Positions 47,505-64,000 of a DNA stretch of 64,000 nt are shown in pieces (position 1 is the first letter of the stretch; each line of letters opens with the position of its first letter). Below the pieces are notes generated by a model, which was not told the DNA's origin, did not search any database, and saw nothing but the letters and a program-made list of their open reading frames with translations. This stretch comes from Planctomycetota bacterium. GTDB taxonomy: Bacteria; Planctomycetota; UBA8742; UBA2392. The translations under genes were made by a program, and so were the position numbers. The DNA lies in assembly GCA_019636215.1 (NCBI GenBank), contig JAHBXZ010000001.1:69694-133693 (forward strand), read 5' to 3'.

Positions 47505-47513
47505 GGTTGTCTC

Positions 47514-49502: not shown

Positions 49503-49576
49503 TAGGCCCTCCAATGGAAAGCGGCGGCCATAGGGCCGCCGCGGGTTGAAACAGGTGCACCCGGACCATCCGGGCG
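49450..49576. repeat. 126-bp direct repeat, copy 2 (upstream of the metal-efflux operon)
   Basis: See copy 1. The two repeats bracket 41669-49449 exactly. Confidence 0.85.
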
Positions 49577-49579
49577 CTG

Positions 49580-50627: not shown

Positions 50628-50837
50628 CTAACCAGCACCTAGCTTCACCAGCATTTCGTAGCAACCGTCCACGGTGATGCTGACGCCGGTGCGTTTCCCT
50701 GCCGGCCTGAGGCAGATCTCCGGCAACAGACCCGTGTGATCAAGCTCGACGACCATACGCTTGGTTTTGCGGGCGTCGTGGCTTCGGCTGGGCACAACAC
50801 GGACCAGCTTCTTGCCCTGCCTGAGCGGCGTGGTCAT
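50628..50837 (-). CDS. 69-aa protein translationally coupled (ATGA) to the upstream GHKL ATPase gene
   Basis: The start codon overlaps the stop of 50834-52579. No motif recognised. Confidence 0.35.
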   Translation of the reverse strand: MTTPLRQGKKLVRVVPSRSHDARKTKRMVVELDHTGLLPEICLRPAGKRTGVSITVDGCYEMLVKLGAG

Positions 50838-52579
50838 GGCGTCACCTCCTGCAGGTAGCCGCAGTTCTCGACCAGGCAGACCTTGCGCGTGACTTTGCCG
50901 TTTTCGACCACCTTAACCAGCATGGACTGGATGCTCAGTTGGTTGCCCCAGCCCAGCTCGAACTTCGCGTTGGCAAAGCGCAGCCGGCAGTCCTTGCCGT
51001 CCGCCAGCCGATCGCGCAGCAGCGTGACCAGTTCGTCCGGTGTCACGTCATTGGCCGGCACACCCGGCCACGTCGCCGCAATGTGCACGGCGAGGTCACT
51101 GGTGCGCCACAGTTCGTCGGCTTGGTCGTGGTCCAGCTCTTCCTCGTGCCATGCGTGCCATGGGTCTAGGTTCGGGTAGGCCACGGCGTCGGCGCAGCTG
51201 TGCACCACGGCGAAGTCATTGCCGCTGCGGAAGTTGGCGCGGTCCCGGTCGTCGGGAACGAACTCGCCCTCCAGGTCGCCATCAGCCAGCACGGTCTGTT
51301 CTGGCACCGGCTGGACCTCGCGGGTGTCGCCAGTGTCGAACCTGTAGGTGATGCTCTCGCAGCGCCACAGCAGGTCGCTGCGGTCGTCGGCCGTGATGCC
51401 GAAGCGCAACTCGGTAATCAGCGGCACGTCGGGGAACATGGTCTTGAACAACGCAGCCTGCCCTGAGGCCAGCTGCAGCATCTCGTTGGGCACAAGCTCA
51501 AGGGCCGTGTGGTACTGGGGCTCAAAGGCGCTGGCCAGGACGCCCTTGGCCAGCCGTTCGGCCACCTGCTGGCGTGTCAGGGTGTACAGGTAATCGCGAT
51601 CCTGGCGCAGCTGCAGGTGCTGCAGGTCCGGGGGCAGCTCAATCACCCGCAGCGGATTCCAGGCATAGACCAGGCTGGCCAGGCGCCGGCGGGCCTTGTC
51701 GTCGCCAAACTGAAAGATGCGACCGATCACGGCCTGCACGAGGGCCTGCTGGACCTCGGCGACCAGGTTGCGATACGCGGCGTCTTCGATGATGGCATCG
51801 CGGTCAGGCAGAGTGAAGCTAACCGTGCCCGGCCGGGCATGGATGCGCACCCAGGCCATGTCAGAGGGACCTGACAGGCCCTTGAGCCGGGTCGAGATGC
51901 CCTGCTGGATCAACGCCACGCCGGCATGGTCACCGCGGCCTGGCGGTTCGGTGTGCAGGTCAATGAAACCCCACGAGGTGTCCACGCGCAGGGCACCCTT
52001 GGGCACGGCCAGCGGGCTGTAGGGTTCGACGATGCGGCTGGCGCCGTCAACCACGATCGTAGTGCGGAAGGGCATGAACTCGGCCTGGCGCTGCCACTGT
52101 AGGGCATAGCCCTCAACGTGGGGCATGTCGTGGCCACCGAACTCGTGGTGCAGCCGGCTGACCCTGACCTGCGTGCCCTTCACCGCGGGCAGCAGGCCTT
52201 CGTAGACGGCAGGCTTGCCGGCGCACAGCGCGTCGTAGGCCAGCGTGAGCCGCCAGCGGCCGGAACGCACCTCGGCGAGGCCGCCCAGCTTGAACACGCT
52301 GAACAGGCCCATGCCGGCAGGGCGTTCGGCCCCGACGCCCTCGGACCAGTCGGACTTGCCAATGTTGATCAGGTCCTGCGGGTCAAACACACCATGGCCG
52401 TTGTCAGTCACGGTGACCGAGCCGACACGGGTGTCGATTTCAACCCGCACATCAGAAGCCTCAGCCCGCCGCGCGTTCTGAAGCAGCTCCTGGATGCAGG
52501 CAAAGTTGTCACTGAAGTAGTTCAAGATGTTGCGCAGGATGGAATGGGCATCCGCGCGAACACAAAGTTGTGTAAGCAT
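50834..52579 (-). CDS. GHKL-superfamily ATPase (HATPase_c-like) with large C-terminal region
   Basis: AAGGAGG RBS then ATG at 52579. N-box CIQELLQNARRAEAS. G1 box VTVTDNGHGV. G2 box RPAGMGLFSVF. 581 aa. Confidence 0.6.
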   Translation of the reverse strand: MLTQLCVRADAHSILRNILNYFSDNFACIQELLQNARRAEASDVRVEIDTRVGSVTVTDNGHGVFDPQDLINIGKSDWSEGVGAERPAGMGLFSVFKLGGLAEVRSGRWRLTLAYDALCAGKPAVYEGLLPAVKGTQVRVSRLHHEFGGHDMPHVEGYALQWQRQAEFMPFRTTIVVDGASRIVEPYSPLAVPKGALRVDTSWGFIDLHTEPPGRGDHAGVALIQQGISTRLKGLSGPSDMAWVRIHARPGTVSFTLPDRDAIIEDAAYRNLVAEVQQALVQAVIGRIFQFGDDKARRRLASLVYAWNPLRVIELPPDLQHLQLRQDRDYLYTLTRQQVAERLAKGVLASAFEPQYHTALELVPNEMLQLASGQAALFKTMFPDVPLITELRFGITADDRSDLLWRCESITYRFDTGDTREVQPVPEQTVLADGDLEGEFVPDDRDRANFRSGNDFAVVHSCADAVAYPNLDPWHAWHEEELDHDQADELWRTSDLAVHIAATWPGVPANDVTPDELVTLLRDRLADGKDCRLRFANAKFELGWGNQLSIQSMLVKVVENGKVTRKVCLVENCGYLQEVTP

Positions 52580-52680
52580 GGGTCCTCCTTCACCCAAAAC
52601 TGGGTTTGTTGTTCAGTCTTTCCATTTGACATACATGTGCCCAGGCTGACGCGGTGCGGCGTTGAGAAGCTGCGTCCGCT

Positions 52681-52908
52681 CTATGGTTTGGATGGTCGCA
52701 TGGGAGGCGGACAGTTCACGAACTGATACTTGCTGAACACGGTGTACCTGCTTGGCTTGCCGCAGTCGTTGCAGATCAAGTCAATTTCGAAAGCCGTTTT
52801 GCCAACCATCTTTCGCGTGCGGGTCTTGGCGACAGACACGTTCTCAGACTTGCAAGACTTGCACACTAGCTTTGTCAGCTTTCCACGGTACTCGATGCAG
52901 AGGGCCAT
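52681..52908 (-). CDS. zinc-ribbon small protein
   Basis: GGAGG RBS. CKSCKS...CNDCGK is a four-Cys ribbon. Confidence 0.4.
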   Translation of the reverse strand: MALCIEYRGKLTKLVCKSCKSENVSVAKTRTRKMVGKTAFEIDLICNDCGKPSRYTVFSKYQFVNCPPPMRPSKP

Positions 52909-53021
52909 ATGACCTCCAGTCGGTTAGGTTCGTAGATTGTGCCGCACTCATGCGCGTAAGCCTTCAAAAAAAGCTAGGACTGACCGACAATCGACTCGGC
53001 ATGTACGCCGAAAGATCGCGG

Positions 53022-54047
53022 TTAGCTCTCGATCCACCTGCCCGTTGCCGACAGGTCAGTCAGTCGGCCGCCAAGGGTTTGCAGCTTGTGGCGGCTTTCT
53101 AGCGGCAGTGCGTTGTCGTTGCCGGCGCGGGTCAGTGCGTTGATGACCGCGAACAGCGACTGGCCAGGTTCACACTTGTAGGCGCGGCCGATCGCGGCGC
53201 CTTCGTCTTCGGCCAGTTCGTACCGGGTGACGATGCGGTCCAGCGCCTTTTCGGGTTCGGAGACGCGGATGCCGCGCGTGCCGGCGAACACTGTCACGGC
53301 CTGCGCCGACAGCTCGATCGCATGGTCGAAGGCCTCGCGCACCTGATCGGCGATCTCGGCCTTGCCGACGTGGCGACGCGTGTACGCCCAGCGGCCGGCG
53401 CCCATCACCAGCCCATTCAGGCAGATGGTGCGAAACACCAGCGCGCTGATGTTCACCCGCGCCAGGCCGACTTCTGAGTTGCGCAGGTGCAGACCGCGAT
53501 GCAGGGGATCGCGACGTACCTCAGGAACGCCAGTTTCCACCGGGCCGACGACCTGCAGGTCGAGGTAGCCCTCGGTGAGCTCGTAGCGCACCGGGGTGTT
53601 CTCGCCCAGGCGCGATTCCAGCCAGCCAAGGATGTCCTGGTGGTTGATCGGCCGGTACGCGCCCGACAGCACGCCGCGGACTTCGCCGCCCTCGAATCGC
53701 AGCATCAGGTCGCGGTCGGCCTCGCGCAGCCAGCGGTTGACGTTGCGGGCGCGCAGGTCGGGGTCGCACTTGCGCAGGTAAGGCGCCGGGATGCCCAGCT
53801 TGGAGGCAAGCTGGCCAAAAGCGTGTTCGCGCAGGGCGTAGCGCTCATTGCCGCCGACCATCAGGGCACCATCCAGGGGCGCCATGGCCAGTTCGCGGGT
53901 GCTGACGACCAAGTCGCGCTGGTCGCGGGCAAGGCCGGCCAGGCGTTCGCGAAGCTCACCCAGCTTGGGGTCCGGGCGAACGTTCAGCCGGCCAAGAATG
54001 TGCCGAGCAGCCGCCACGGGCCGCTCTTCAAGAACAGCTTCAACCAT
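53022..54047 (-). CDS. DUF932-like (phage/plasmid-like) protein, tentative
   Basis: GGAGG RBS then ATG at 54047. GNERYALREHAFGQL and VRGVLSGAYRPINHQDILGWL resemble the two conserved blocks I recall for DUF932 proteins of conjugative elements. Confidence 0.4.
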   Translation of the reverse strand: MVEAVLEERPVAAARHILGRLNVRPDPKLGELRERLAGLARDQRDLVVSTRELAMAPLDGALMVGGNERYALREHAFGQLASKLGIPAPYLRKCDPDLRARNVNRWLREADRDLMLRFEGGEVRGVLSGAYRPINHQDILGWLESRLGENTPVRYELTEGYLDLQVVGPVETGVPEVRRDPLHRGLHLRNSEVGLARVNISALVFRTICLNGLVMGAGRWAYTRRHVGKAEIADQVREAFDHAIELSAQAVTVFAGTRGIRVSEPEKALDRIVTRYELAEDEGAAIGRAYKCEPGQSLFAVINALTRAGNDNALPLESRHKLQTLGGRLTDLSATGRWIES

Positions 54048-54218
54048 AAAGCCTCCAATGGGCCGATAAGGCCCGGAAAGTGAAAAGGCGCCGGCAAAAG
54101 CCGACGCCAACAAGAAAGTGGCCCCAAACCCGCCAGATCAGCGGGTACAGGGCCTGTTCATGGTCTTATGCCACAGAAAGGCGGACTCTTGGGCTGGTGA
54201 CGACACTGTCGTAGCCCG

Positions 54219-54650: not shown

Positions 54651-54675
54651 ATTTTCTCCTCAGTATCTTCCTGCG

Positions 54676-55245
54676 TTACGCCCTCTGTTTGCCTTGCATG
54701 AAGCGCAGTTCGACCCGGCCCATCTTGCGGTCTTCCTTCAGCCATTTCGCTAAGCGGGCTTTGGATTCGCGTAGGCGCTTTGCCGTAAGCGGCCTCTCCG
54801 TTGGGAAATCCGGAAAGAACGCCGTCACAATCTTCTTTCGCCCTGCCCGGTTCATGCTGTGCTGCACGTTCCATGGGGGTGTCTTGGCCTTGACGCGAAA
54901 TCGCTCGTTGGCCATGGCCTGCCGCTTGCCACCGGTACGCTTCCACCGCACGTACAGGCACCACTGCCAGCCCACGTGCCAGGTAATCAACCCGCGGATG
55001 TGTCCAACGCGCCTGGCGTGTTGCAGAACTCGCGACCTCAGGTTCTCCGCAATCCCGTGGTACACCAGTATCCTGCGCCGCCCGGTCGGCGACCGCAGCT
55101 GAAGTTCATACTGACCCGGTGCGGCCGACACGCCTGCAACTGTGGCGTGGCCGATTTTGAATCCCCGGCCGAACGGATAGTCGGCCGTGGCTGGCAAGCG
55201 GACCAGCAAAGGCTGCCACTTCGTCCAGACATTGAGCTTGCGCAT
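54676..55245 (-). CDS. GIY-YIG nuclease domain protein (tentative)
   Basis: PGQYELQLRSPTGRRRILVYHGIAENLRSRVLQH fits GxY...(10-12)...Y.G.A.NL..R...H of the GIY-YIG motif. Basic C-terminal tail. Confidence 0.45.
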   Translation of the reverse strand: MRKLNVWTKWQPLLVRLPATADYPFGRGFKIGHATVAGVSAAPGQYELQLRSPTGRRRILVYHGIAENLRSRVLQHARRVGHIRGLITWHVGWQWCLYVRWKRTGGKRQAMANERFRVKAKTPPWNVQHSMNRAGRKKIVTAFFPDFPTERPLTAKRLRESKARLAKWLKEDRKMGRVELRFMQGKQRA

Positions 55246-55355
55246 GTCCACCTCGCAGCGGCATAGCTTACCAGTCCCCGCGCTTGGCGCCGTGGCGAAG
55301 GGCCGCACCGGAGCGCGGTTGATCTGCCCGCAATCGGCGTGGCAACTTCGAGGAC

Positions 55356-57437
55356 CTACCGGCGCATGTCTTCCAGGAACTCGGACTCCGGCTTCACGCC
55401 GGTGACTATCAGCCGGTCACGGGCGCGTGTGCAGGCGACGTACAACAGGTGCCGCTCGGTCTCGTATGCATCCCGCAAGTCGGCCTCATCGCCCACGTCC
55501 GAGATTCGCTCCTGTAACGGCACCACTTCATCATCACACGCCATGACCGCCACAGCCCTGAACTCCAAGCCTTTAGCAAGCTGCATGGTCGAGATGGACA
55601 CGGCGTCGTCAGGCGCATGCGCCTTGTCGTCGAGAACCCTAAACCCAAGGCCTGAACCGTTCACGGCTGCTCTCGCCCGCGGCAACTGTGCCTCGGACCT
55701 CACAAATACCGCGCACTCCTGCAGCTGCATGCCCTCAGAAACCCTTTCCTTCAGCCATTCCGCGACGCTTGCACTCTCGTCCTGTGCGGTCGCAAAGACC
55801 CGCAAGTCCGGGGCTGGCCCGTTGAACACGGAAACCGTGTCACTACGTTCTTCAACGTTGCCGTCAGCGTCTGCCACGGAACGCGCTAGCAACCTGTCGG
55901 CCTGGGACCGTATCTGGTGCGAAGTTCGATAGTTGACGCGAAGGCCGCGCGACCGTCCACGAATGTCGACGCCGAGCGCCCTCCACGAAAACGGCTGCTG
56001 GAAGATGCGCTGGCCCTGGTCACCGGCGAAGAACAGCGCGTTGCCTCCACTTGGTGCAAGGCTGGCCAGAAAGCGCAGATGCGGCACGCCCAAATCCTGC
56101 GCCTCGTCCACAACTACATGGTCAAAGGCCGGCCGTTTGTCATTGCGCAGCGCCGCCGACAGTGCCGCAAACACCTCGGCCTGCGTCTTCAAACCACGGG
56201 TGGCCAATTCCTTCCTTGCCGCATCAAAGATTTGCCAGATTGCCTGGCGACGAGCCTCCGGCAGCCGGGTCTTGCGACCCAGGCGCGCCAAGTCGCGGAA
56301 CTGCTCCCAGGATTGGACCTGCCACGGGTCGACAACGTGTTCCCACTCGGCCCACAAGAACTGGTTAGTAATGCCAGTCAGACCGGTCGCCTTGGCCGAC
56401 TCAGCCAGCAGCTGTCGAACAATCTCTGCCGGCGCGATGCTGACCGGCCCCACTTTGGCTTTGTGCAAACGATTGGCGATCACTGGCAGCGAGAACACAT
56501 CAATGCGCTCGCCCAGCATGGGTTCCGCAGCCAACAGACGCTTGAGTTTGGCAAACAGCGACTCCGCCAGAACGTCGTTGAAAGTGGTCAGCAGCACGCG
56601 GGCATCAGGATTTCGGCGTGCCAGGTGCACTGCACGGTGCAGGGCGACTATGGTTTTGCCTGTACCGGCCGACCCGGCGACACGCGCTGGACCGTTGAAG
56701 TCCCGCTCTACCAGTTGCCGCTGCTCGGGGTGCAGAAAGACGGTCCACTTGTCCCAAGGATAATCCAGCGCGGCCTGCAGCTCGTCAGCGTTCTTGAGGG
56801 TCCTGAAGCGGCGCTGGGCGTCGGGGTGGTCAAACGGCGTGGGCGTAGTGGTTGCCACAGGCACTGGCTGCGGCTTGCCACCCGTGGCGAGCTCCAGCAG
56901 GGCTTCGGCGGCCTCGGCCGGTAGGTGTTCTGCCAGCACTAGAAGCGAGGTTTCGGTAGCTTTCTTGACGTCGGGCAGCCATTCAGACGGCACGCCGTAG
57001 CCCAGCAGCGCAGCGTCATCCATGTCCTCGAACAACCGGGACTCTGCCTTCGCAGGGTTTGCTGGTTCGGGCGCCGACACATAGACCGGCACCACAATCT
57101 CTTTGAAAGTTTCACGGATCTCGACCAGCTGCGCCGCCCCGGTGGCGGGATGAGTTTCCAGCTTGCGGCGTTCGGCCCAGCCGTAGGCCTTGTCGTGATG
57201 GTCCACATAGCACAGCAGCATGCTGCCGCCCGTTTTGTGGACGATCAGCCGGATGTCGGCGTTCACACGCACCGACCAGAAGTTCTTGTCCTTGGCCTTG
57301 TCCAGCTTGTGGAAGCTGAGCCCCGGGCTGGCGGGGTTCATCTGCAGGTCAAACGCTGTGGTCTTGACGGCCTTCTGCTCGTCGCCCGTGAGGCGCGCTA
57401 GGCTGTCCGTGAAGGTGTCGGCGATGCGGAAGTCCAT
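55356..57437 (-). CDS. UvrD-like SF1 helicase with N-terminal RelE/ParE-like domain
   Basis: N-terminal ~90 aa (LQMNPASPGLSFHKL...NFWSVRVNADIRLIVHKTGG...) resembles the RelE/ParE fold consensus. Then Walker A GSAGTGKT, VVDEAQD, and the C-terminal LYVACTRARDRLIV. Confidence 0.7.
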   Translation of the reverse strand: MDFRIADTFTDSLARLTGDEQKAVKTTAFDLQMNPASPGLSFHKLDKAKDKNFWSVRVNADIRLIVHKTGGSMLLCYVDHHDKAYGWAERRKLETHPATGAAQLVEIRETFKEIVVPVYVSAPEPANPAKAESRLFEDMDDAALLGYGVPSEWLPDVKKATETSLLVLAEHLPAEAAEALLELATGGKPQPVPVATTTPTPFDHPDAQRRFRTLKNADELQAALDYPWDKWTVFLHPEQRQLVERDFNGPARVAGSAGTGKTIVALHRAVHLARRNPDARVLLTTFNDVLAESLFAKLKRLLAAEPMLGERIDVFSLPVIANRLHKAKVGPVSIAPAEIVRQLLAESAKATGLTGITNQFLWAEWEHVVDPWQVQSWEQFRDLARLGRKTRLPEARRQAIWQIFDAARKELATRGLKTQAEVFAALSAALRNDKRPAFDHVVVDEAQDLGVPHLRFLASLAPSGGNALFFAGDQGQRIFQQPFSWRALGVDIRGRSRGLRVNYRTSHQIRSQADRLLARSVADADGNVEERSDTVSVFNGPAPDLRVFATAQDESASVAEWLKERVSEGMQLQECAVFVRSEAQLPRARAAVNGSGLGFRVLDDKAHAPDDAVSISTMQLAKGLEFRAVAVMACDDEVVPLQERISDVGDEADLRDAYETERHLLYVACTRARDRLIVTGVKPESEFLEDMRR

Positions 57438-57441
57438 AGGC

Positions 57442-59559
57442 CTATTTCCCGCCACGGAAGGGCCGCGCCTCCAGCCCCATTTCCGCAAGGTAGGTCGACG
57501 GAAGTCCAGCTTCGCCAAGAATGGTGTCACTGGTTAGCAAGATCAGGCGCTTTCGTGCACGCGTGAACGCAACGTAGAAAACCCGACGTTCCTGTTCCAG
57601 TTGATCGGCTGTGGTCGCCAATTTGCTTGGCCACACACCCTCATTGACGTCCAGAAGGATAACTGCGTCAAACTCCTTGCCCTTGGCACGCAGCGCCGTC
57701 ATCAGGTGCAGCGGAAGTTTCCACTCAGGCTCGCGGTTTGCATCATCTTCTTCATCGCCGGGTACTCTTGCCAGCGTCGCAATTGCCTTGTCCAGATCGT
57801 CGTAGAAAGCCCCATAGTCATTCCCGTAGCGCTCGGCGAACTCCGCAAGGTGGGCGAAGGGCGGATCCGTATAGAACACGTCTTCCAGCGACTTGCCGTA
57901 GTCTTTGCGTAATCCGTCAAAGTTGTCGCTGATCGCGTCGATGGATTCAGCCACGGTGGAAGCTTTGATCAGCGCACTGATCGCGTCCGCAAACTCTTGG
58001 GACCGCGACGCATCGTCATTCGACCCCTTCAGCGTACCGCGGTACCTGCGCATGCAATCCACACAGGCCGCCAGTGTCTTGGGCCGGTCGTTTTGCAGGT
58101 GCTTGTGCAGCCCGGCCCGGTCGGCCTTACTGAGGGGGAATCGACGCACTTTATCCACCAGCTTTAACAGGTCTTGAATCGGATCGAGCCCAGGCACGGA
58201 GCTCAGGCCCGCCCGCGCCTTGACCCCCAGCATGAACTTTAAGTCGCCAAAGGCCTCGCTGAGAAACACCTGCAGGTCTTCGGCCGCGTAGAAGGGAATG
58301 TTGTGGCTGGCCAGCACTATCTGGTACGGGATAATCTGCCCGCGCTTTCGGCCGAGTATGGCAACTTTCTTGATTTCCTTGTCGCTCAGCATGGCGCGCA
58401 CCTCTCGCACCACATAGTCAATGCTGTCCGCCAGCGACGGCATCAGGTGGCATTCCAGCCGCGCGTCCGCAGTCGACGCTGAGATCACTTTCTTGTCTAC
58501 GCGCCGCAGGTTGTTCTTGATCAGCCTTCGCGCGTGTTCCACCACATTCTTGGGTGACCGGTAGTTCCGCGATAGCACATGCGTCGCGTATTTTCCGCCG
58601 ATGTATTCATCCGGCGAAAGCACGAACTGCGGGCTGGCGCCGCGCCACTCGTAAATGGCTTGGTCGTCGTCGCCGATGATGGTCAGCTCTGTCTTGTTGG
58701 CTTTGGCAATGGACTGCAGCAGCCGCAGGTCGAGGCAGTTCACGTCCTGGAACTCATCCACAAGGATGTGTTCATACCGGTGCATGCCGGTCGTGAACTT
58801 TCCTTCTGCGACAGCCTCTTCAAGGTCCAGCCATGCCCAGTACTTCTGGTCTTCAAAGGTAATCATGGCCATCTGGTACAGCCTGACGGTCGCGTCCCGC
58901 CAGAACCGCAGAAAGCCCTTCTCCCAGTCCTCGCGCAGGTTGCCGACGCGCGTGTCAATGATTTCCAGGTCAGCCAATGTCTGAAACAGGCCCGTCAGGT
59001 ACGAGGTCAGGCCGGCGCGCATCAGCCACTTGGCGTGTTCATTGAACGTGTCCGACTTCGCGTGAATGTCGTGGCGGAAGCCCAGGGATTTCAGGCCGTC
59101 CATCACTGCCATTACGGCCTTTGCCGTGCGATTGCGCGACTTGTTTTGCGTCAGCAGCTCATCCAGCTTCTTGTGCTTGCTCCAGATCGGCTGAAGGTTG
59201 TTGTGTACTGCAAAGAAGATGTCGCTGCTGCCTTTCAGCAGCCTTAGATTGTGGCTGCGGGACTTAAGGCGACGAAATCCCCACGCGTTCAGGGTGGTAA
59301 CTTCTACTGACCCGGCAATGGGCCGAAACTCAGGTGTATTTTTCAGCCGGTCGCGAAGTTCCTCGGAGGCCGGCCTTGTGAACGTAAAGATCAGGAAGCG
59401 CGGCTTGGTCTTTTCGGCCACTTCCCACTGGTGCACGCAACGCCAAAGCAGCGAGTGCGTCTTGCCGGAACCGGCCGGCGCCAGCAAACGGATCGCCTTG
59501 CGTTCGTCTTTGGCGAACGGAAGCTGAAATTCGTCCAGTGCGCTTTCAATCGGCATCAT
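57442..59559 (-). CDS. UvrD/PcrA-like SF1 DNA helicase
   Basis: LAPAGSGKTHSL Walker A. ILVDEFQDVN motif II. LTIIGDDDQAIYEWRGA motif III. FYVAFTRARKRLIL motif VI. ATG at 59559 preferred over GTG 59601. Confidence 0.75.
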   Translation of the reverse strand: MMPIESALDEFQLPFAKDERKAIRLLAPAGSGKTHSLLWRCVHQWEVAEKTKPRFLIFTFTRPASEELRDRLKNTPEFRPIAGSVEVTTLNAWGFRRLKSRSHNLRLLKGSSDIFFAVHNNLQPIWSKHKKLDELLTQNKSRNRTAKAVMAVMDGLKSLGFRHDIHAKSDTFNEHAKWLMRAGLTSYLTGLFQTLADLEIIDTRVGNLREDWEKGFLRFWRDATVRLYQMAMITFEDQKYWAWLDLEEAVAEGKFTTGMHRYEHILVDEFQDVNCLDLRLLQSIAKANKTELTIIGDDDQAIYEWRGASPQFVLSPDEYIGGKYATHVLSRNYRSPKNVVEHARRLIKNNLRRVDKKVISASTADARLECHLMPSLADSIDYVVREVRAMLSDKEIKKVAILGRKRGQIIPYQIVLASHNIPFYAAEDLQVFLSEAFGDLKFMLGVKARAGLSSVPGLDPIQDLLKLVDKVRRFPLSKADRAGLHKHLQNDRPKTLAACVDCMRRYRGTLKGSNDDASRSQEFADAISALIKASTVAESIDAISDNFDGLRKDYGKSLEDVFYTDPPFAHLAEFAERYGNDYGAFYDDLDKAIATLARVPGDEEDDANREPEWKLPLHLMTALRAKGKEFDAVILLDVNEGVWPSKLATTADQLEQERRVFYVAFTRARKRLILLTSDTILGEAGLPSTYLAEMGLEARPFRGGK

Positions 59560-59637
59560 TAGCCCCTTGGAAACCACCGCCCATAATTCTGCATGCACCA
59601 CAACCGTGGTCGGACGCGGTTGGTCTGCACGACTGGG

Positions 59638-60051
59638 TCAGCCTTCGCGAAGCAAGAGCTCACTCTGACTGGCAAGCGCTGCAGCCATTTCTTTCTGTTT
59701 GGCCTTGTGCAGGTCGGTGTCCCAGGGCCAGCCACGGATTGCGGCATGGCGGTCTGGGGGCTCGCTGGCCTCGACGATCAATCCTGCTTCTTGAACGGCA
59801 GCTGGTTTGAACATCGCCGCACCGTGAAGCGTTCGCGCCCCCGCCGCATGAAACCCAAGTGCCCAGAGCCCTTCCAGCGGTGTTTTCCCATGGCGCGAAA
59901 TCGAGCTTTCACGTTGTTTCGGGTCGGGATTCGGTAGAAACGCGGGCGGCTTCACCATCGTGGTGTTGTAGTGCCTGTCCGAAAACAGAAACCGTGCCAG
60001 GTCTTCGTCGCCGCCGATGGCTTCAGGCAGCCCGGAGGGAAGTGGTGCCAT
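59638..60051 (-). CDS. hypothetical protein
   Basis: 137-aa ORF. No motif recognised. Confidence 0.3.
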   Translation of the reverse strand: MAPLPSGLPEAIGGDEDLARFLFSDRHYNTTMVKPPAFLPNPDPKQRESSISRHGKTPLEGLWALGFHAAGARTLHGAAMFKPAAVQEAGLIVEASEPPDRHAAIRGWPWDTDLHKAKQKEMAAALASQSELLLREG

Positions 60052-60559
60052 CGCCGACGATCTCCCTGATTGCTGTCAGAATTCGGCTAGGCACATTGCG
60101 GCCGTCGAAGTAAGCAACGGCGTGGCCCCTATCTGTCCCGTCCAGCCATGCATAGGCCAGGCGGTTGCCGGCACCAATGCTCAGCGAAAGCAGACGGGTG
60201 CGTGACACGATCCAGTCCAGCGATACTGAACCGTCGGGCTCAGGCGCGAACTCGGGCAGTGGCAGGTCGTCGGGCAGCGCACGAACGAAAGCACGTGCGC
60301 GGTCAGCGGCCGCAGGGTCAATCGGAAGCGCGCCGCCTGCGCCCCAGCTTTCTTCCGCACTTTCCGCAACAACCGCATCCAGCTCGACGAGTGCCTCGGC
60401 CTTGCGGCCGAACAGCGCCTGCGAATTCTCCAGGTGCCTCTGCACTTTCTCGGCTGCGGAATGAACTGCCTGGGCATCTGACGACACGGCGCTTGCCGCC
60501 TGCATCGGCAAGCAGCCCAAGCCCACGCACAATCCTAATGTTGAAAGAGGTTTATGCAT
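60023..60559 (-). CDS. secreted hypothetical protein
   Basis: Internal ATG at 60559 gives the signal peptide MHKPLSTLGLCVGLGCLPMQAASA. Confidence 0.35.
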   Translation of the reverse strand: MHKPLSTLGLCVGLGCLPMQAASAVSSDAQAVHSAAEKVQRHLENSQALFGRKAEALVELDAVVAESAEESWGAGGALPIDPAAADRARAFVRALPDDLPLPEFAPEPDGSVSLDWIVSRTRLLSLSIGAGNRLAYAWLDGTDRGHAVAYFDGRNVPSRILTAIREIVGDGTTSLRAA

Positions 60560-61290
60560 TCCGGCCTCACCACGTTGAAGAATACGCGGTTTTTCAGCTT
60601 CCGCAACGCCTGAAGCTTGGCGTGAAGACCTGCCCAATCGCCCGGCTGCAGTTCAACCCTTGAACCAACACAGTTGTCGAGGATGACCGGCAGCCCACCC
60701 TCTTCCGGCGGCTGTGAAGTCATCACCAGCATCAGGTCGTGGCCCGTTTCTGGCTCAACGGCTGCATACTGGTTGAGGAAACCAGACATCTTCAGCTTGT
60801 CGTCAGGCAGTTGTGGGCTCAGGTTCAGGTACTCGGCCAAGTTCAGCCCCGCGTCCGGAATCGGCAGCAGCATGCGGTTGATGTACCGCAAACGAACCAC
60901 CCGCACCTGCACCGGGGCAGCAAGCTTGCAGAAGCTGTTCCACGCGGCCTGGATCGCCGGCAAGTAGTCATCCAGCGTGCTGTAGGGCGCAAGTCGGTTG
61001 AACGAAAAACCGACATCGCGCACCTGAACCAACTGCTTGCCATCCTGGCTCATGCACTGCAACGCCTGCAGCCGATGATTGGCACTGTGCTTGGTGACAG
61101 CGTCCTTGTCGGCCAGGAACTGGTACTCGTGGGCGGTCCGCCTCTGCAGCTTTGGGTACTCAGCTCCGTACTGGGCGCGCACCGCGCCTTCCAATGCCGC
61201 CAAGTCAAGGCCGGTTGGCATATCGCAATCAAAGTCCACCACCGCTTCCACGATGGGGGCCTTGGCCAGCCTGGGGTACACATTGCTCAT
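60535..61290 (-). CDS. TIGR04255-like hypothetical protein
   Basis: The N-terminus MSNVYPRLAKAPIVEAVVDFDCD resembles the M..Y.NAP.VE..F...F opening of TIGR04255 proteins. 251 aa. Confidence 0.45.
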   Translation of the reverse strand: MSNVYPRLAKAPIVEAVVDFDCDMPTGLDLAALEGAVRAQYGAEYPKLQRRTAHEYQFLADKDAVTKHSANHRLQALQCMSQDGKQLVQVRDVGFSFNRLAPYSTLDDYLPAIQAAWNSFCKLAAPVQVRVVRLRYINRMLLPIPDAGLNLAEYLNLSPQLPDDKLKMSGFLNQYAAVEPETGHDLMLVMTSQPPEEGGLPVILDNCVGSRVELQPGDWAGLHAKLQALRKLKNRVFFNVVRPECINLFQH

Positions 61291-61335
61291 GTTGCATCCA
61301 CGGATACCACAGGTTCTACTCTTTGCACAGCCTTG

Positions 61336-62178
61336 CTACCTCGTCGCATTTCGGCCGGGCGACGCACTTCGGATTGCCGGCAAAAGCCCCTCTTCGTGCC
61401 GCCAAAAGTCCTCGGCGGTCCGACCAACCTGGGAGCACACGTAGTCGGGCGGCACGAGCACCTTGCCGATGATTCTTGAAGCCGGAATCACGCTTGAGGT
61501 GCGTATGCCCATTGAGCCGCAGTACCCAAGGGACGCTACGTCTTCCGAGCACACGCGCAGCGCATACACCACACCGGGATGGTCAGCAGTGCCCAACTTT
61601 TCCACCATTTCCCGTACATCGCTGAGTGCGGACAGTTCTGCGGAAAGCCAGTTCAGGTCCACGTCCTTGACTTCGACCAACGATGCTGGGTGTGCGCCCA
61701 ATCGCTCCAACTCCTGGCGTTCAGCGTGGTGGTAGTCCACGCGCTCCTGACGGAACTGGGGGTCTGCCATAAGAAGATCCAGGTCGGCCAATGCACGTCG
61801 AAGCGCGCGTACCTTCTCGCCGCCGGCGAAATCGCGAGACGCGTACAGCAAGGCCCTCATGCTGGTTTCCGCAAAGAAGATCGGGCTCGTGTCGCCGTGC
61901 CTGAAGTCAGATTCCAACGAAAACGGTTTGAGTACCGCGAATCCGCCGGTGTCCCGGCCGGCCCATCGCAACTTTTGGTAAATCGCCACCACCCGACGAA
62001 CATCCTCTACCCTGACTGCAGTGCGTTTAGGGTCGAAACCATGCTGCTCAATGGAGGCCGCATGGCCTGCTGACGTCCCGTGGAAAATCACCCACCCGTC
62101 CCGTTCGATGGCTACCGGGAACAACATCCGGCCTTTCTGGATTCGATCGGCCTCGAACTGGAAGACGGGAATCCCCAT
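61336..62178 (-). CDS. hypothetical protein
   Basis: 280-aa ORF. No motif recognised. Confidence 0.35.
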   Translation of the reverse strand: MGIPVFQFEADRIQKGRMLFPVAIERDGWVIFHGTSAGHAASIEQHGFDPKRTAVRVEDVRRVVAIYQKLRWAGRDTGGFAVLKPFSLESDFRHGDTSPIFFAETSMRALLYASRDFAGGEKVRALRRALADLDLLMADPQFRQERVDYHHAERQELERLGAHPASLVEVKDVDLNWLSAELSALSDVREMVEKLGTADHPGVVYALRVCSEDVASLGYCGSMGIRTSSVIPASRIIGKVLVPPDYVCSQVGRTAEDFWRHEEGLLPAIRSASPGRNATR

Positions 62179-62186
62179 GGCTGCCC

Positions 62187-64000
62187 CTACACCCTGAACA
62201 CTTTCATTACTTCGTCGCCCAGGTGGTTGATGACCTTGATGGCGATGCGGCCGTTCTTGGGGCGGTCGAAGGGCCTTGAGATGTCGCTTTTCAGCGTTTC
62301 CCAGGCCTCGGCGTTGATCTCAGCCTTCAGTGTGGTCTTGAGCGCCTTGTAGGGGTCGTTCGCGCCCAGGAAGTAGGCGTGGCGCACAAAGAAGCTTTCT
62401 TCGTTGTAGTCCGTGTCCACAAACCAGCAGGCTATGCCGTCGGCGTCGTCGCTGATCACTTCGCCCGTCTGGGGCCGGAACACGTCCACGCCCCACACTT
62501 CGACAAAGAACTTGCCTGCCGGCGCGCCTGCTGCCCAGGCCTCGAATCGTTCGTACTTCTCGCGCTCTCGCTGCAGGTTGGCCTTGCGGCGTTTGGCTTC
62601 ATCGGTGTCGGCCTTCTTCAGTTCGGCCAGTTCCGTATCGATGGCCGCCACGCGGTCCTTGCGGCGGGTCAGTTCTTTCTTCAGGGAGTCGCTGCCGCAT
62701 TCGTGAATGCGCACGTCGGGCTCGCCGAAGATCACAAACAGGTTGCCCTTGCCGGTGTTCTTGAGGTTTTCGGCCATGTGCAGGTCGGCGTTCATGCGCG
62801 CTTTCAGCACCGGCACCCGGCCCAGCTTGCTGAACTCCGTGGCGTGGGCCTCGTAGTTGAAGGCGCAGGCAACCAGCACGTCAAAATCGGCCTCGCCGGC
62901 TTCACGCGCGGCCGCGGCAAGTTCGGTGCGCTGCACGGTGCCGAACTCGGGGCCGACGAAAATGCCGGCGCGGCGCTCGGTGTCGCCTTCCATGTAGCGG
63001 CCTTCGGCGCATACGTATTCACCGGGCCAGGGGGCGATGCTGGCGAAGCTGATGCGGTCTTCCCTGTGGGCCTGCTGAACCCCGGCGGTCTTGAGGTTGT
63101 CCAAGATCATCTGGGCGAAGCTTTGTTTGCCGCCACTGTCGGCGTGGGCCTTCTGCAGCGGGTCCACCAGTTCGTCGTTTTCGTCCACCGTAAGGGCGCG
63201 GTGTGGACTGAGGCTTTCGACGGTGAACGGCCCGGCGACACGAACCTTCGTCTTGTCGGCGTAAGGCTTGTCGTAGAGGTATTCGTAGTCGGCCTTGGCT
63301 TCGATGCTGTCGTCAATGTCCTTCTGGCGGGCGATGCGGCCTTCCCACCACTGGGCGTGAAGCTTCTTGGCCGCGTCGGGCCACTTGGACTCGGGGTCGC
63401 GTGGGATTTCCCATTCCTGCCAGTTCTGCTTGAGGGCGGTGTTCAGCTGCTGGCGCAGGGGCTCCAGCGTCTGCTGCCACTTTTCGTAGAAGACGTCAAT
63501 CTCGGCGTTGTTGGCAATGGATTTCAATGTGATGTGGCGGACACGTTCGTAGACAAAGCCTTGGCGGATATTGCCCTGTGTGGGCTGGTTACTGGGTGTC
63601 TTGCCTGTGACTTCGGCTTCCTTGAGCTGGCCCTCGCGGGAATCGGCCAGCAGGTAGAATGGGTAGCGCGCGCCCATGATGCGGGCGCGGGCCAGCGCCA
63701 GCGCCACGCGCGAGGTGTCAATCGTGATCCAGCGGCGGCCCCATTGCTCTGCGACTGTAGCGGTGGTGCCGGAACCGCAGGTCGGGTCCAGTACGAGGTC
63801 GCCGGGATCGGTGGTCATAAGTAGACAACGCTGCACAACATCGTCTTCCGTCTCCACGATGTACTGCTTTTTTCCACCAAATCCTGATGGACGAAGATCG
63901 AGCCACGAAGTGTTCACGGGGCTCCGTCGATTCTCGTCACGATAGTTTTTCCAGAGCAGGCTTTTGCCGACCGAGTACAGGTAGCCAGCGTTGTTGACTC
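62187..64000 (-). CDS. beta-class (N6-adenine/N4-cytosine) DNA methyltransferase with ~450-aa C-terminal extension, 5' end beyond the window
   Basis: LVLDPTCGSGTTATVAEQWGRRWITIDTSR is motif I (FxGxG plus the acidic loop) placed C-terminally, as in N6_N4_Mtase enzymes. The reading frame stays open to position 64000. Confidence 0.65.
   Translation of the reverse strand, partial: VNNAGYLYSVGKSLLWKNYRDENRRSPVNTSWLDLRPSGFGGKKQYIVETEDDVVQRCLLMTTDPGDLVLDPTCGSGTTATVAEQWGRRWITIDTSRVALALARARIMGARYPFYLLADSREGQLKEAEVTGKTPSNQPTQGNIRQGFVYERVRHITLKSIANNAEIDVFYEKWQQTLEPLRQQLNTALKQNWQEWEIPRDPESKWPDAAKKLHAQWWEGRIARQKDIDDSIEAKADYEYLYDKPYADKTKVRVAGPFTVESLSPHRALTVDENDELVDPLQKAHADSGGKQSFAQMILDNLKTAGVQQAHREDRISFASIAPWPGEYVCAEGRYMEGDTERRAGIFVGPEFGTVQRTELAAAAREAGEADFDVLVACAFNYEAHATEFSKLGRVPVLKARMNADLHMAENLKNTGKGNLFVIFGEPDVRIHECGSDSLKKELTRRKDRVAAIDTELAELKKADTDEAKRRKANLQREREKYERFEAWAAGAPAGKFFVEVWGVDVFRPQTGEVISDDADGIACWFVDTDYNEESFFVRHAYFLGANDPYKALKTTLKAEINAEAWETLKSDISRPFDRPKNGRIAIKVINHLGDEVMKVFRV

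What the first reader, a model, noticed from the sequence alone, without database searches (positions are those of the whole stretch)
50628..64000. 13-gene co-directional cluster: methyltransferase, two UvrD helicases, GIY-YIG nuclease, DUF932, zinc ribbon, GHKL ATPase plus coupled small protein. Candidate undescribed multi-gene defence system
All 13 ORFs are on the minus strand with gaps of 4-50 nt or overlaps, which reads as operon-like. The set contains:
- a beta-class DNA methyltransferase (5'-truncated by the window);
- two tandem SF1 UvrD-like helicases, one carrying an N-terminal RelE/ParE-like domain;
- a putative GIY-YIG nuclease;
- a DUF932-like protein;
- a four-Cys zinc-ribbon protein;
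- a GHKL ATPase translationally coupled (ATGA) to a 69-aa protein;
- five ORFs with no recognisable domain.
Methylase plus nuclease plus helicases plus an accessory ATPase is the logic of BREX/DISARM/type I-III RM-class systems. This gene combination is not one of the families I can place from memory, and GHKL ATPases are rare in characterised defence systems. It could instead be cargo of a conjugative or integrative element, given the DUF932 protein.
Basis: partly seen in the sequence, partly recalled or inferred. Interest (0 to 1): 0.8.

Follow-up and report, generated by a model that had tools for sequence, protein, structure and literature searches.

The report
Mosaic defence island, not one system
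The 13 same-strand genes are not one new defence system: they are a restriction-modification operon with extra helicases and unrelated genes inserted into it, sitting next to backbone genes of a mobile element whose neighbouring slots hold different defence genes in related bacteria.

Summary
The 13 minus-strand ORFs exist, but comparison with related loci splits them into separately inherited parts.

1. **Restriction-modification (RM) core.** The truncated methyltransferase (MTase) and both UvrD helicases are three of four genes of a recurrent type III-like operon: BPTD_3080-family ResIII/endonuclease, PF01555 MTase, UvrD, RelE-UvrD. This operon is compact in another metagenomic contig (64-70% identity) and occurs with one helicase on Pseudomonas, Gemmobacter and Rhizobium plasmids. 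The nuclease gene should lie just beyond base 64000.

2. **Nested genes.** Four ORFs (280 aa, TIGR04255, 204 aa, 137 aa) lie between the MTase and the helicases. They are absent from every comparator. Other operons of this family carry unrelated inserts at the same junctions.

3. **Orphans.** The weak GIY-YIG candidate and the 143-aa ORF have no detected relatives.

4. **Mobile-element backbone.** DUF932, the Hsp90-like GHKL ATPase and the 69-aa protein follow a terminator-like hairpin. They belong to a backbone conserved in Planctomycetota with a 336-aa protein, a 167-aa protein and a PD-(D/E)xK exonuclease. A 99.6%-identical strain carries HmaA and a DRT reverse transcriptase where this window has the RM cluster and the zinc ribbon.

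Distant GHKL-Toprim-DUF932 triads occur on proteobacterial conjugative elements and plasmids. No function was tested.

The parts
62187..64000 (-). C-terminal 603 codons of a large beta-class (PF01555) Mod-like DNA methyltransferase. About 420-450 N-terminal residues lie beyond the window. This is the M subunit of the type III-like R-M-H-H operon.
   Evidence: Pfam N6_N4_Mtase E 8e-13. PADLOC MTase_III PDLC03632 E 1e-260, covering profile positions 457-866 of 983. 52-64% identical to MTases that sit next to BPTD_3080-family REases.
61336..62178 (-). 280-aa ORF with no domain. First of four genes nested between the MTase and the helicases.
   Evidence: No Pfam, NCBIfam or PADLOC hit. No plasmid homologue. 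Absent from all comparator operons. Singleton cluster.
60535..61290 (-). TIGR04255-family protein (251 aa), nested passenger gene.
   Evidence: NCBIfam TIGR04255 E 5e-24, full length. Its distant relatives sit in unrelated contexts.
60023..60637 (-). 204-aa ORF (178 aa from the ATG at 60559), nested passenger. It overlaps both neighbours.
   Evidence: Only a weak PADLOC PDC-M32A hit, E 8e-5. No PDB hit. Overlaps of 25 and 29 nt.
59638..60051 (-). 137-aa ORF, nested passenger with no domain.
   Evidence: No hit in any library or in the PDB.
57442..59556 (-). SF1 UvrD-like helicase 'UvrD2' (704 aa from the NCBI start). Third gene of the R-M-H-H operon.
   Evidence: Pfam UvrD-helicase E 5e-30 and UvrD_C E 2.5e-29. 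70% identical to the helicase at the same position in L045. Family of more than 3000 proteins. Also found inside a BREX-type-3-like cluster.
55356..57437 (-). UvrD-like helicase with an N-terminal RelE/YoeB-like domain (693 aa from the ATG at 57437). Last gene of the R-M-H-H operon.
   Evidence: Pfam UvrD_C, UvrD-helicase and HigB-like toxin E 6.6e-4. 50-65% identical to the terminal gene of BPTD_3080 RM operons. N-domain profile hits only YoeB and RelE3 in the PDB. The gap from UvrD2 is 4 nt.
54676..55308 (-). 210-aa ORF (189 aa from the ATG at 55245), a weak GIY-YIG candidate. An orphan that trails the RM operon.
   Evidence: Pfam GIY_YIG_2 E 0.0075, below cutoff. No PDB or plasmid relative.
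54219..54650 (-). 143-aa orphan ORF.
   Evidence: Singleton cluster. No hits.
54087..54108 (-). Terminator-like hairpin (9 pairs, 8 G-C, T-rich tail) between the cargo block and DUF932. It lies near the point where the closely related strain L020 stops aligning (about 54178).
   Evidence: The total number of terminator-like sites in the region is not above chance.
53022..54047 (-). DUF932-family protein (341 aa), a backbone gene of the mobile element.
   Evidence: phrog_1362 E 1e-30. Homologues carry PF06067. Conserved with the rest of the backbone in at least 8 loci. AF2 model pLDDT 87.6, with no informative PDB fold match.
52681..52908 (-). 75-aa four-Cys zinc-ribbon ORF in the variable slot between DUF932 and GHKL. 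Not annotated by NCBI.
   Evidence: Sequence. phrog_5516 E 3e-5. An unrelated 69-71-aa zinc ribbon occupies the same slot in MAG SJ126. In L020 it is replaced by a DRT reverse transcriptase.
50834..52579 (-). Hsp90/sacsin-like GHKL ATPase (581 aa). An accessory backbone gene that is always found near DUF932.
   Evidence: Pfam HATPase_c_3 and SACS. Bergerat motifs are invariant in the family alignment. Foldseek top hits are TRAP1/Hsp90, E 1e-14. DUF932 lies nearby in every full-length relative with enough flank.
50628..50837 (-). 69-aa backbone protein, overlapping the GHKL gene by 4 nt.
   Evidence: Conserved in L001, L002, L020 and L023. Also present in L041 (87% identity), which has no GHKL, so it is not GHKL-specific.
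41526..49599 (-). Cus/Czc-type RND metal-efflux operon (OEP, YHS, CusB-like, CusA-like), cargo in the next backbone slot. Flanked by direct repeats of 110 and 43 nt.
   Evidence: Pfam. Repeats at 41526-41690 and 49434-49599. The same operon sits between DUF932 and GHKL in L001.
39235..41715 (-). Rest of the conserved backbone: 336-aa protein (40705-41715), 167-aa protein (40098-40601) and PD-(D/E)xK exonuclease (39235-40020).
   Evidence: Same order in L002, L003, L005, L020 (only the 336-aa gene lies within the fetched flank), L023, L024 and L041. phrog_69 exonuclease E 5e-23.

Best explanation
The region is a mosaic in which cargo abuts a mobile-element backbone.

**(A) RM operon.** The MTase (62187 to beyond 64000), UvrD2 (57442-59556) and RelE-UvrD (55356-57437) are the M, H and H genes of a recurrent type III-like restriction-modification operon. 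Its nuclease is a BPTD_3080-family protein with a ResIII motor and a C-terminal endonuclease. That gene is predicted to lie just beyond the window end.

Inferred mechanism: the Mod-like MTase marks host DNA, the Res-like protein translocates on and cuts unmodified DNA, and the two SF1 helicases act on the cut or invading DNA. The RelE-like domain may be a second effector.

**(B) Passengers.** Four unrelated ORFs (59638-62178) have been inserted between M and H. This RM family tolerates different inserts at that junction in other genomes. The GIY-YIG candidate and the 143-aa ORF are orphans that trail the operon.

**(C) Backbone.** After a terminator-like hairpin come DUF932, a slot holding a zinc-ribbon ORF, the Hsp90-like GHKL ATPase and the 69-aa gene. 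These belong to a conserved backbone of a mobile (probably integrative) element in Planctomycetota, which continues with a 336-aa protein, a 167-aa protein and a PD-(D/E)xK exonuclease.

The slots beside DUF932 act as hotspots that hold different defence or cargo genes in related strains.

**Shown versus inferred.** Shown: synteny, homology and breakpoints. Inferred: all biochemical activities, co-transcription, and the presence of the REase.
For: **RM operon**
- L045 carries a compact four-gene operon: ResIII/RE_endonuc (1020 aa), MTase (956 aa), UvrD (704 aa), UvrD (691 aa). The last three are 64%, 70% and 65% identical to the window proteins. Its REase is 70% identical to the Pseudomonas BPTD_3080 REase.
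- R-M-RelE-UvrD operons occur on Pseudomonas avellanae, Gemmobacter and Rhizobium plasmids.
- The REase has ResIII plus RE_endonuc domains.
- Inserts at the R|M and M|H junctions are unrelated to each other and to the window's ORFs.

**Break at DUF932**
- L020 is 99.6% identical over window 40628-52564. DUF932 is only 88% identical at the nucleotide level, and there is no similarity beyond about 54178.
- L020 has HmaA (E 8e-191) plus an HD protein upstream of DUF932, and a DRT6/DRT4-like reverse transcriptase (E 1e-146) in place of the zinc ribbon.

**Backbone**
- The same gene order is found in L002, L003, L005, L020 (as far as the fetched flank reaches), L023, L024 and L041. Tyrosine integrases lie nearby in L041 and L043.

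**Other slots**
- Upstream of DUF932: AbiU-like and PD-T4-6-like kinase genes in L002; HmaA in L041.
- Between DUF932 and GHKL: a PDC-S26-like gene in L023 and the metal-efflux operon in L001.

**Composition**
- GC3 is 0.82-0.84 for backbone genes and 0.63-0.80 for the cargo block.

**GHKL-DUF932 link across phyla**
- Dechloromonas (next to a TraI_2 relaxase and a TraG/TraD coupling protein) and a Piscinibacter plasmid carry GHKL, a Toprim/zinc-ribbon protein and DUF932 together.
Against: - The REase gene is not visible. One comparator (Phenylobacterium, L016) has a degraded MTase (two tblastn pieces, not annotated) and no REase is annotated, so the window's operon could also be incomplete.
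- No integrase or att repeat was found in the window. Whether the RM block lies inside the element or in flanking chromosome is therefore undecided.
- All 13 genes are co-directional and most are closely spaced, so read-through transcription across modules cannot be excluded.
- The terminator scan as a whole is not above chance (17 sites against 14 +/- 3.7).
- GHKL is missing from L041. Its status as backbone rather than frequent cargo is a judgement.
- No function was tested for any gene.
Confidence: 0.8

Rival explanations
1. One reading: all 13 genes form one undescribed multi-gene defence system. Its parts would be a methylase for self-marking, GIY-YIG and other nucleases, helicases, and a GHKL ATPase with its small partner.
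For: The genes are co-directional and mostly tightly spaced, with an ATGA overlap between GHKL and the 69-aa gene. MTase plus helicases is RM-like logic.
Against: - There is no synteny between the two halves in any of more than 20 related loci.
- A 99.6%-identical strain replaces everything above about 54178 with HmaA and an HD protein.
- The 69-aa gene persists without GHKL in L041.
- A terminator-like hairpin and a 171-nt gap separate the halves.
- GC3 differs between the halves.
Confidence: 0.04
2. The DUF932, zinc-ribbon, GHKL and 69-aa genes form a self-contained functional cassette of their own, either a defence system or an anti-defence/establishment module carried by mobile elements. 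The neighbouring RM operon is independent of it.
For: - DUF932 lies within 0.3-7.8 kb of GHKL in every full-length GHKL relative.
- There are three paralogous DUF932-ZnR-GHKL cassettes in one MAG, SJ126.
- Distant GHKL-Toprim/Zn-ribbon-DUF932 triads occur on a proteobacterial conjugative element and a plasmid.
- The ATP-binding motifs are intact.
Against: - The space between DUF932 and GHKL is filled with unrelated genes on either strand: a reverse transcriptase, TPR proteins and an 8-kb efflux operon. That argues against a tight operon.
- Two of the three SJ126 cassettes also keep the other backbone genes, so the copies look like element copies.
- L041 lacks GHKL.
- 0 of 80 viral DUF932 loci carry a GHKL relative.
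- Neither protein hits PADLOC.
Confidence: 0.3
3. The four nested ORFs, with or without the GIY-YIG and 143-aa ORFs, are functional additions to the RM operon. They would be second-line defence passengers analogous to PrrC embedded in the EcoprrI type I RM locus. The resulting 8-9-gene block would be a real lineage-specific composite system.
For: - The nested ORFs are packed with 8-81-nt gaps or 25-29-nt overlaps between M and H.
- Other operons of this family also carry ORFs at the same junctions.
- The 204-aa ORF has a weak PADLOC candidate hit.
- The PrrC analogy comes from general knowledge and was not tested here.
Against: - None of the nested ORFs has a homologue in any comparator operon.
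- Three of the four have no detectable family.
- The neighbours of TIGR04255 elsewhere are unrelated.
- The ORFs could be decaying insertions or overcalled ORFs in 60%-GC DNA. Their GC3 (0.63-0.76) is the lowest in the block.
Confidence: 0.25

Closest known systems
Type III restriction-modification (Mod + Res), specifically the NCBI-curated 'BPTD_3080 family restriction endonuclease' operons with a roughly 960-1030-aa PF01555 methyltransferase
   Same: The MTase is 52-64% identical to those in such operons and matches PADLOC MTase_III at E 1e-260. The gene order M, then UvrD, then RelE-UvrD is identical to L045. The partner nuclease in relatives has a ResIII motor plus a C-terminal endonuclease, as type III Res does.
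   Different: - There are one or two extra SF1 UvrD helicases, one with a RelE-like N-domain. These are not part of canonical type III RM.
- The REase family has no PADLOC model, and no paper in the searchable library names it.
- Here the REase is unseen, and four foreign ORFs interrupt the operon.
Gabija (GajA OLD-family nuclease + GajB UvrD-like helicase)
   Same: Both UvrD proteins hit GajB models (best E 3.5e-49 for UvrD2).
   Different: There is no GajA/OLD-family protein in the cluster. The hits reflect the general UvrD fold. The true relatives of both helicases sit in MTase-containing RM or BREX-like operons.
Defence-gene hotspots flanked by conserved genes in mobile elements (for example P2/P4 hotspots and integrative-element cargo slots; from general knowledge)
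   Same: Conserved backbone genes are kept in a fixed order, and the content between and beside them varies among close relatives. That content includes recognised defence genes: HmaA, a DRT, AbiU-like, PD-T4-6-like and an RM system.
   Different: - The backbone is a so far unnamed Planctomycetota element.
- Its ends, integrase and mobility are not established for this window.
- Non-defence cargo (metal efflux) uses the same slots.
Hsp90/TRAP1/sacsin-type GHKL ATPases
   Same: The Bergerat ATP-binding motifs are conserved. Weak SACS and sacsin-type profile hits were found. The full-length AF2 model aligns best to TRAP1/Hsp90 N-terminal plus middle domains (E 1e-14, TM 0.41-0.45).
   Different: - Sequence identity is only 9-15%.
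- The family with this C-terminal half is tiny: 14 clusters at E below 1e-30. About 1660 clusters share only the N-terminal 150-300 residues.
- The genomic context is a mobile element, not a chaperone locus. No MutL or MORC structure is among the top 50 hits.
DUF932 (PF06067) genes of plasmids, conjugative elements and phages
   Same: Family membership is supported through phrog_1362 and PF06067-bearing homologues. Relatives occur in at least 88 viral contigs (80 fetched), on plasmids and near a relaxase.

Membership tests
Type III-like RM, BPTD_3080 family (R-M, plus or minus UvrD, plus RelE-UvrD) | Large beta-class PF01555 Mod-like MTase orthologous to those adjacent to BPTD_3080 REases | tested here: met
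   Pfam E 8e-13 and PADLOC MTase_III E 1e-260. 52-64% identity to MTases in L014, L015, L018 and L045.
Type III-like RM, BPTD_3080 family (R-M, plus or minus UvrD, plus RelE-UvrD) | Res-like subunit (ResIII motor plus C-terminal endonuclease) encoded immediately upstream of the MTase | not testable with these tools
   The gene would lie beyond base 64000. It is present in 4 of 5 comparators carrying this MTase. In Phenylobacterium no REase is annotated and the MTase is degraded.
Type III-like RM, BPTD_3080 family (R-M, plus or minus UvrD, plus RelE-UvrD) | UvrD helicase with a RelE-like N-domain as terminal gene, preceded in the four-gene form by a second UvrD | tested here: met
   g07 is 50-65% identical to the terminal genes. 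g08 is 70% identical to the third gene of L045. The order is the same and the gap is 4 nt.
Type III-like RM, BPTD_3080 family (R-M, plus or minus UvrD, plus RelE-UvrD) | Sequence-specific methylation and restriction of unmodified DNA | not testable with these tools
   Needs methylome sequencing and phage or plasmid challenge.
Gabija | GajA (OLD-family ATPase/Toprim nuclease) adjacent to the UvrD-like GajB | tested here: not met
   PADLOC scan of all 13 proteins found GajB-type hits only for the two UvrDs and no GajA.
BREX / DISARM | PglZ plus BrxC (BREX), or DrmA/DrmB/DrmC (DISARM), alongside the MTase | tested here: not met
   None of the 13 proteins hits these models. A UvrD2 relative does sit in a BREX-type-3-like cluster elsewhere (L047).
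MutL/MORC-type GHKL ATPases of RM systems (Iyer et al. 2008; recalled from memory) | GHKL ATPase genomically linked to MTase or REase genes across genomes | tested here: not met
   No GHKL relative has an MTase or REase neighbour homologous to the window's. The fold matches Hsp90/TRAP1, with no MutL or MORC in the top 50.
DUF932 (PF06067) | Significant match to the family profile | tested here: met
   The direct Pfam hit is below cutoff (20.3 versus 23 bits). However, phrog_1362 gives E 1e-30, and homologues at 44-85% identity carry PF06067 and are named DUF932 by NCBI.
GIY-YIG nuclease | Significant profile match with the GIY/YIG, Arg, Glu and Asn catalytic motifs | tested here: inconclusive
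   Pfam GIY_YIG_2 E 0.0075 over 31 residues only. No PDB or plasmid relative. Motif-like strings are visible by eye, but there is no alignment to support them.
Mobile-element defence hotspot | Conserved flanking backbone with variable content, including known defence genes, among related elements | tested here: met
   Backbone order is conserved in at least 8 loci. The slots hold HmaA, DRT, AbiU-like, PD-T4-6-like, PDC-S26-like, RM and metal-efflux genes.
Mobile-element defence hotspot | Demonstrable element boundaries (integrase, att repeats) enclosing the slot | tested here: inconclusive
   Integrases lie near the backbone in L041 and L043. In the window there is only a tRNA-Gly at 36174-36248 and a weak Rep_1-like ORF. 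No integrase and no att-like repeat were found.

The most novel reading that the evidence does not exclude
DUF932, a zinc-ribbon (or Toprim-zinc-ribbon) protein and an Hsp90-like GHKL ATPase form a conserved functional module of mobile elements. It is found from Planctomycetota to Betaproteobacteria. It could be an ATP-driven establishment or anti-defence machine, or a defence system in its own right. The immediate flanks of this module act as capture sites for defence genes. The type III-like R-M-UvrD-RelE-UvrD operon lodged there would be a second uncharacterised layer that itself captures passenger genes.
Probability: 0.2. Interest if true: 0.7.

Novelty: new variant of a known kind. Interest (0 to 1): 0.4.

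Why it matters
- **Method.** Co-directional, tightly packed genes in a defence island can be three or more unrelated layers. Here, comparison with a 99.6%-identical strain resolved them.
- **The RM form.** The four-gene type III-like RM form carries two SF1 helicases, one with a toxin-like RelE domain. It is widespread (plasmids of several proteobacterial genera, Thermus, Planctomycetota). Public annotation of the nuclease goes no further than a family name. The operon also seems to tolerate foreign genes inserted inside it, so it is a tractable case for studying how RM operons acquire second-line functions.
- **The mobile-element genes.** The recurrent pairing of DUF932, one of the commonest unknown-function genes of mobile elements, with an Hsp90-like ATPase gives a concrete handle on DUF932. 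The slots beside it could be mined for new defence genes in a poorly studied phylum.

Tried and rejected
- **Exact-protein look-ups.** Look-ups of the 280-aa, TIGR04255 and GHKL proteins, intended to extend the contig past 64000, found nothing on record. The REase therefore could not be checked.
- **Near-identical DNA.** A megablast search of plasmids gave only two tiny matches.
- **Literature.** Searches for DUF932, PF06067, BPTD_3080 and RelE-UvrD in RM contexts gave no mechanistic paper.
- **Orphan ORFs.** PDB sequence searches for the 280-, 204-, 137-, 143-aa and GIY ORFs gave no meaningful hits. Plasmid tblastn for the 280-aa, GIY and 143-aa ORFs gave none.
- **TIGR04255 module.** I tested whether TIGR04255 and its two downstream ORFs form a module also present in Crinalium. 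The neighbours are unrelated.
- **Shared inserts.** I tested whether inserts in other BPTD_3080 operons are homologous to each other or to the window's. They are not.
- **Prophage idea.** DUF932 relatives are common in viral contigs, but none of the 80 fetched loci carries the GHKL or the exonuclease backbone gene.
- **Systems rejected.** Gabija, BREX, DISARM and MORC-type RM were rejected on missing defining partners.
- **Failed call.** One Pfam call failed on a wrong reading frame and was repeated.

Full report
**What is in the sequence**

Thirteen minus-strand ORFs occupy 50628-64000. The window comes from a Planctomycetes MAG. Exact look-ups return NCBI proteins MBX3472857 (69 aa, KF754_00550) to MBX3472867 (280 aa, KF754_00600) on a 516,928-bp contig. 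The numbering shows that NCBI called 12 of the 13 ORFs. The 75-aa zinc-ribbon ORF is not annotated.

| Gene | Result |
|---|---|
| MTase | PF01555; PADLOC MTase_III E 1e-260, covering profile 457-866 of 983, so about 420-450 N-terminal residues lie outside the window |
| Two helicases | UvrD |
| GHKL | HATPase_c_3 / HATPase_c / SACS, all just below cutoff |
| RelE-like N-domain | HigB-like, E 6.6e-4 |
| DUF932 | 20.3 bits against a 23-bit cutoff |
| GIY-YIG | E 0.0075 |
| 251-aa ORF | TIGR04255, E 5e-24 |

With starts refined from homologues, most gaps are small. The exceptions are 137aa>UvrD2 (81 nt), RelE-UvrD>GIY (110 nt), 143aa>DUF932 (171 nt), DUF932>ZnR (113 nt) and ZnR>GHKL (101 nt). 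The 171-nt gap holds a terminator-like hairpin at 54087-54108 with 9 pairs, 8 of them G-C.

**Is it one system? Synteny of the GHKL half**

The GHKL ATPase family is small: 20 proteins in a 5.8-billion-protein database, mostly from Planctomycetota. I fetched its genomic contexts from genomes and metagenomes and searched them with all window proteins.

- Only the DUF932-like protein accompanies the GHKL ATPase, plus the 69-aa protein in close relatives.
- The MTase, both helicases, TIGR04255 and the other ORFs never do.

The sharpest comparison is L020, an ENA contig.

- It is 99.6% identical to window 40628-52564.
- A 1.8-kb segment there replaces window 52565-53019, the zinc-ribbon region.
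- DUF932 follows at only 88% nucleotide identity.
- There is no similarity beyond about 54178.
- Where the window has the 143-aa-to-MTase block, L020 has an HmaA-type SNF2 helicase (E 8e-191) and an HD protein.
- Where the window has the zinc ribbon, L020 has a DRT6/DRT4-like reverse transcriptase (E 1e-146).

**Synteny of the MTase/helicase half**

The RelE-UvrD protein has 50-60% identical homologues on plasmids. In Pseudomonas avellanae, Gemmobacter and Rhizobium plasmids it is the last gene of an operon. The operon runs: 'BPTD_3080 family restriction endonuclease', then 0-1 small ORF, then a 'site-specific DNA-methyltransferase', then 0-2 small ORFs, then the helicase. The MTases there are 52-64% identical to the window's. 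The REase has ResIII and RE_endonuc domains, which is the type III Res architecture.

The second helicase, UvrD2, belongs to a large family that is 50-70% identical across phyla. A 70%-identical member sits in a compact four-gene operon in L045: REase (70% identical to the Pseudomonas one), MTase (64%), UvrD2 (70%) and RelE-UvrD (65%).

The window's MTase, UvrD2 and RelE-UvrD are therefore three of four genes of a recurrent R-M-H-H system. The REase should lie just outside the window.

Other UvrD2 relatives sit in three further contexts:
- a BREX-type-3-like cluster, alongside a BrxC/PglY-like (DUF6079) gene, a PF01555 MTase, an SNF2 helicase and PglZ;
- next to a PF01555 fragment;
- alone on its contig.

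In Qipengyuania and Thermus plasmids the RelE-UvrD helicase ends other nuclease or MTase operons.

**The nested and trailing ORFs**

The four ORFs between the MTase and UvrD2 (59638-62178) have no counterpart in any comparator. The small ORFs at the same junctions in Gemmobacter, Rhizobium and Phenylobacterium are unrelated to them and to each other. This RM family therefore tolerates variable passengers inside the operon.

Apart from TIGR04255 and a weak PADLOC candidate hit for the 204-aa ORF (PDC-M32A, E 8e-5), these ORFs gave nothing in Pfam, NCBIfam, PADLOC, the PDB or plasmids. The Crinalium neighbours of TIGR04255 are unrelated. The GIY-YIG candidate and the 143-aa ORF are orphans.

**What DUF932, GHKL and the 69-aa gene belong to**

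The window's minus-strand run continues below the finding. It includes a Cus/Czc-type efflux operon, then a 336-aa protein, a 167-aa protein and a PD-(D/E)xK exonuclease (phrog_69, E 5e-23). The full order is:

DUF932, [slot], GHKL, 69 aa, [slot], 336 aa, 167 aa, exonuclease.

This order recurs in L002, L003, L005, L023 and L024, and in L020 as far as its fetched flank reaches.

- L023 is collinear with the window as far as the ORFs next to the window's tRNA-Gly.
- L041, on a 4.1-Mb contig, keeps the order without GHKL. It retains an 87%-identical 69-aa gene and has a tyrosine integrase 10 kb away.
- L043 also has an integrase near its DUF932.
- One MAG, SJ126, has three DUF932-ZnR-GHKL copies. 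Two of them keep the rest of the backbone.

The slots vary among relatives.

| Slot | Contents seen |
|---|---|
| Between DUF932 and GHKL | A zinc ribbon (two unrelated versions), a DRT, TPR proteins, a PDC-S26-like gene, or the whole efflux operon |
| Upstream of DUF932 | The RM block (window), HmaA (L020, L041), or AbiU-like plus PD-T4-6-like kinase (L002) |

In the window the efflux operon is bracketed by direct repeats of 110 and 43 nt. GC3 is 0.82-0.84 for backbone genes and 0.63-0.80 for the RM block and its passengers.

**The GHKL and DUF932 proteins themselves**

- *GHKL.* The alignment keeps the Bergerat motifs invariant. The AF2 model (pLDDT 85.8) matches full-length TRAP1/Hsp90 best (E 1e-14, TM 0.41-0.45), with no MutL or MORC in the top 50.
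- *GHKL family size.* A profile search of 1.84 billion representatives finds only 14 clusters at E below 1e-30. About 1660 clusters at E below 1e-10 share the N-terminal 150-300 residues, typically in proteins of 540-660 aa.
- *Distant GHKL relatives.* They are annotated 'ATP-binding protein' on proteobacterial plasmids. On a Piscinibacter plasmid, in Dechloromonas and in a related metagenomic contig they lie with a Zn-ribbon/DUF7146/Toprim protein and DUF932. In Dechloromonas the group is 3.4 kb from a TraI_2 relaxase and a TraG/TraD coupling protein.
- *DUF932.* The model (pLDDT 87.6) has no informative structural neighbour.
- *DUF932 in viruses.* DUF932 relatives occur in at least 88 viral contigs. 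None of the 80 fetched loci carries a GHKL relative.

**How it most likely works**

Shown: the gene families, their recurrent partnerships and the recombination breakpoints.

Inferred for the RM operon, from established type III RM biology:
- The Mod-like MTase methylates a host motif.
- The Res-like protein uses ATP to translocate and cut unmodified DNA.
- The two SF1 helicases, whose Walker A and B motifs are intact by inspection, unwind or process the invader's DNA.
- The RelE/YoeB-like domain might be a back-up toxic effector.

The passengers may be second-line functions or junk. The DUF932/GHKL genes most likely serve the mobile element (establishment, recombination or anti-defence) and are not part of restriction. 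Nothing here tests these activities.

**Verdict**

The single-system interpretation fails its own synteny test. What remains is:
- a new variant of a known kind of system (type III-like RM with two accessory helicases and nested passengers);
- that variant is lodged in a defence and cargo hotspot of a conserved Planctomycetota mobile element;
- a cross-phylum GHKL-DUF932 association of unknown function.

Noticed in passing
window 41526-41690 and 49434-49599: Direct repeats of 110 nt (89% identical) and 43 nt bracket the Cus/Czc-type metal-efflux operon. The repeat duplicates the 5' end of the 336-aa backbone gene. This suggests the operon was captured by recombination at that gene's start.
   Followed up: partly
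L001 (JABTUE010000002.1) versus window 37264-54047: In a relative whose GHKL is 90% identical, the efflux operon lies between DUF932 and GHKL. DUF932 directly abuts a truncated copy of the window's 412-aa Rep_1-like ORF, and the block is inverted relative to that flank. The DUF932-proximal junction is therefore a recombination breakpoint there too.
   Followed up: partly
window 29450-35112: A C-5 cytosine DNA methyltransferase (29450-31096, PF00145 E 1.7e-43) is followed by three co-directional ORFs with no Pfam hit, in a lower-GC stretch (0.57-0.60). This may be a separate RM or defence locus.
   Followed up: no
window 36174-38812: A tRNA-Gly(CCC) lies at 36174-36248. It is followed by a 354-aa ORF with no Pfam hit and a 412-aa ORF with a weak Rep_1 hit (E 8e-4). 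Both ORFs are conserved next to the backbone in L023. This may be the end of the mobile element, but no integrase or att repeat was found.
   Followed up: partly
L003, L004, L005 / L012, L013 (MAG SJ126, JADLAK01): Three paralogous DUF932-zinc-ribbon-GHKL cassettes occur in one genome. Their zinc ribbon (69-71 aa, CPWC...CCTC) is unrelated in sequence to the window's zinc ribbon but sits in the same position.
   Followed up: partly
L047 (JBFMEW010000021.1) 4243-18085: A BREX-type-3-like cluster reads BrxC/DUF6079, UvrD (53% identical to UvrD2), PF01555 MTase, DUF3800, SNF2/ResIII helicase, PglZ. The same helicase family is therefore recruited by different methylation-based systems.
   Followed up: no
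L015 7913-8491 (Gemmobacter plasmid): The 192-aa ORF nested between the MTase and the helicase contains a GIY-YIG-like string (…LYAL…YIGLT…R…NH). It has no BLAST similarity to the window's GIY-YIG candidate. The motif was noted by eye only.
   Followed up: no
window 49974-50618 (+): A 214-aa plus-strand ORF lies in the 673-nt gap below the 69-aa gene and is 100% conserved in L020. ENA calls a 189-aa gene there on the same strand as this ORF (opposite to the cluster). The only Pfam hits are weak (NrsF, zinc ribbon).
   Followed up: no
L008 10004-13975; L053 6965-13821: A Dechloromonas conjugative-element region and a Piscinibacter plasmid carry GHKL (about 540 aa), a Zn_Ribbon_Prim/DUF7146/Toprim_3 protein and DUF932 together. 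In Piscinibacter a ribonucleotide reductase gene is inserted between GHKL and Toprim, and a DUF1845 gene lies nearby.
   Followed up: partly
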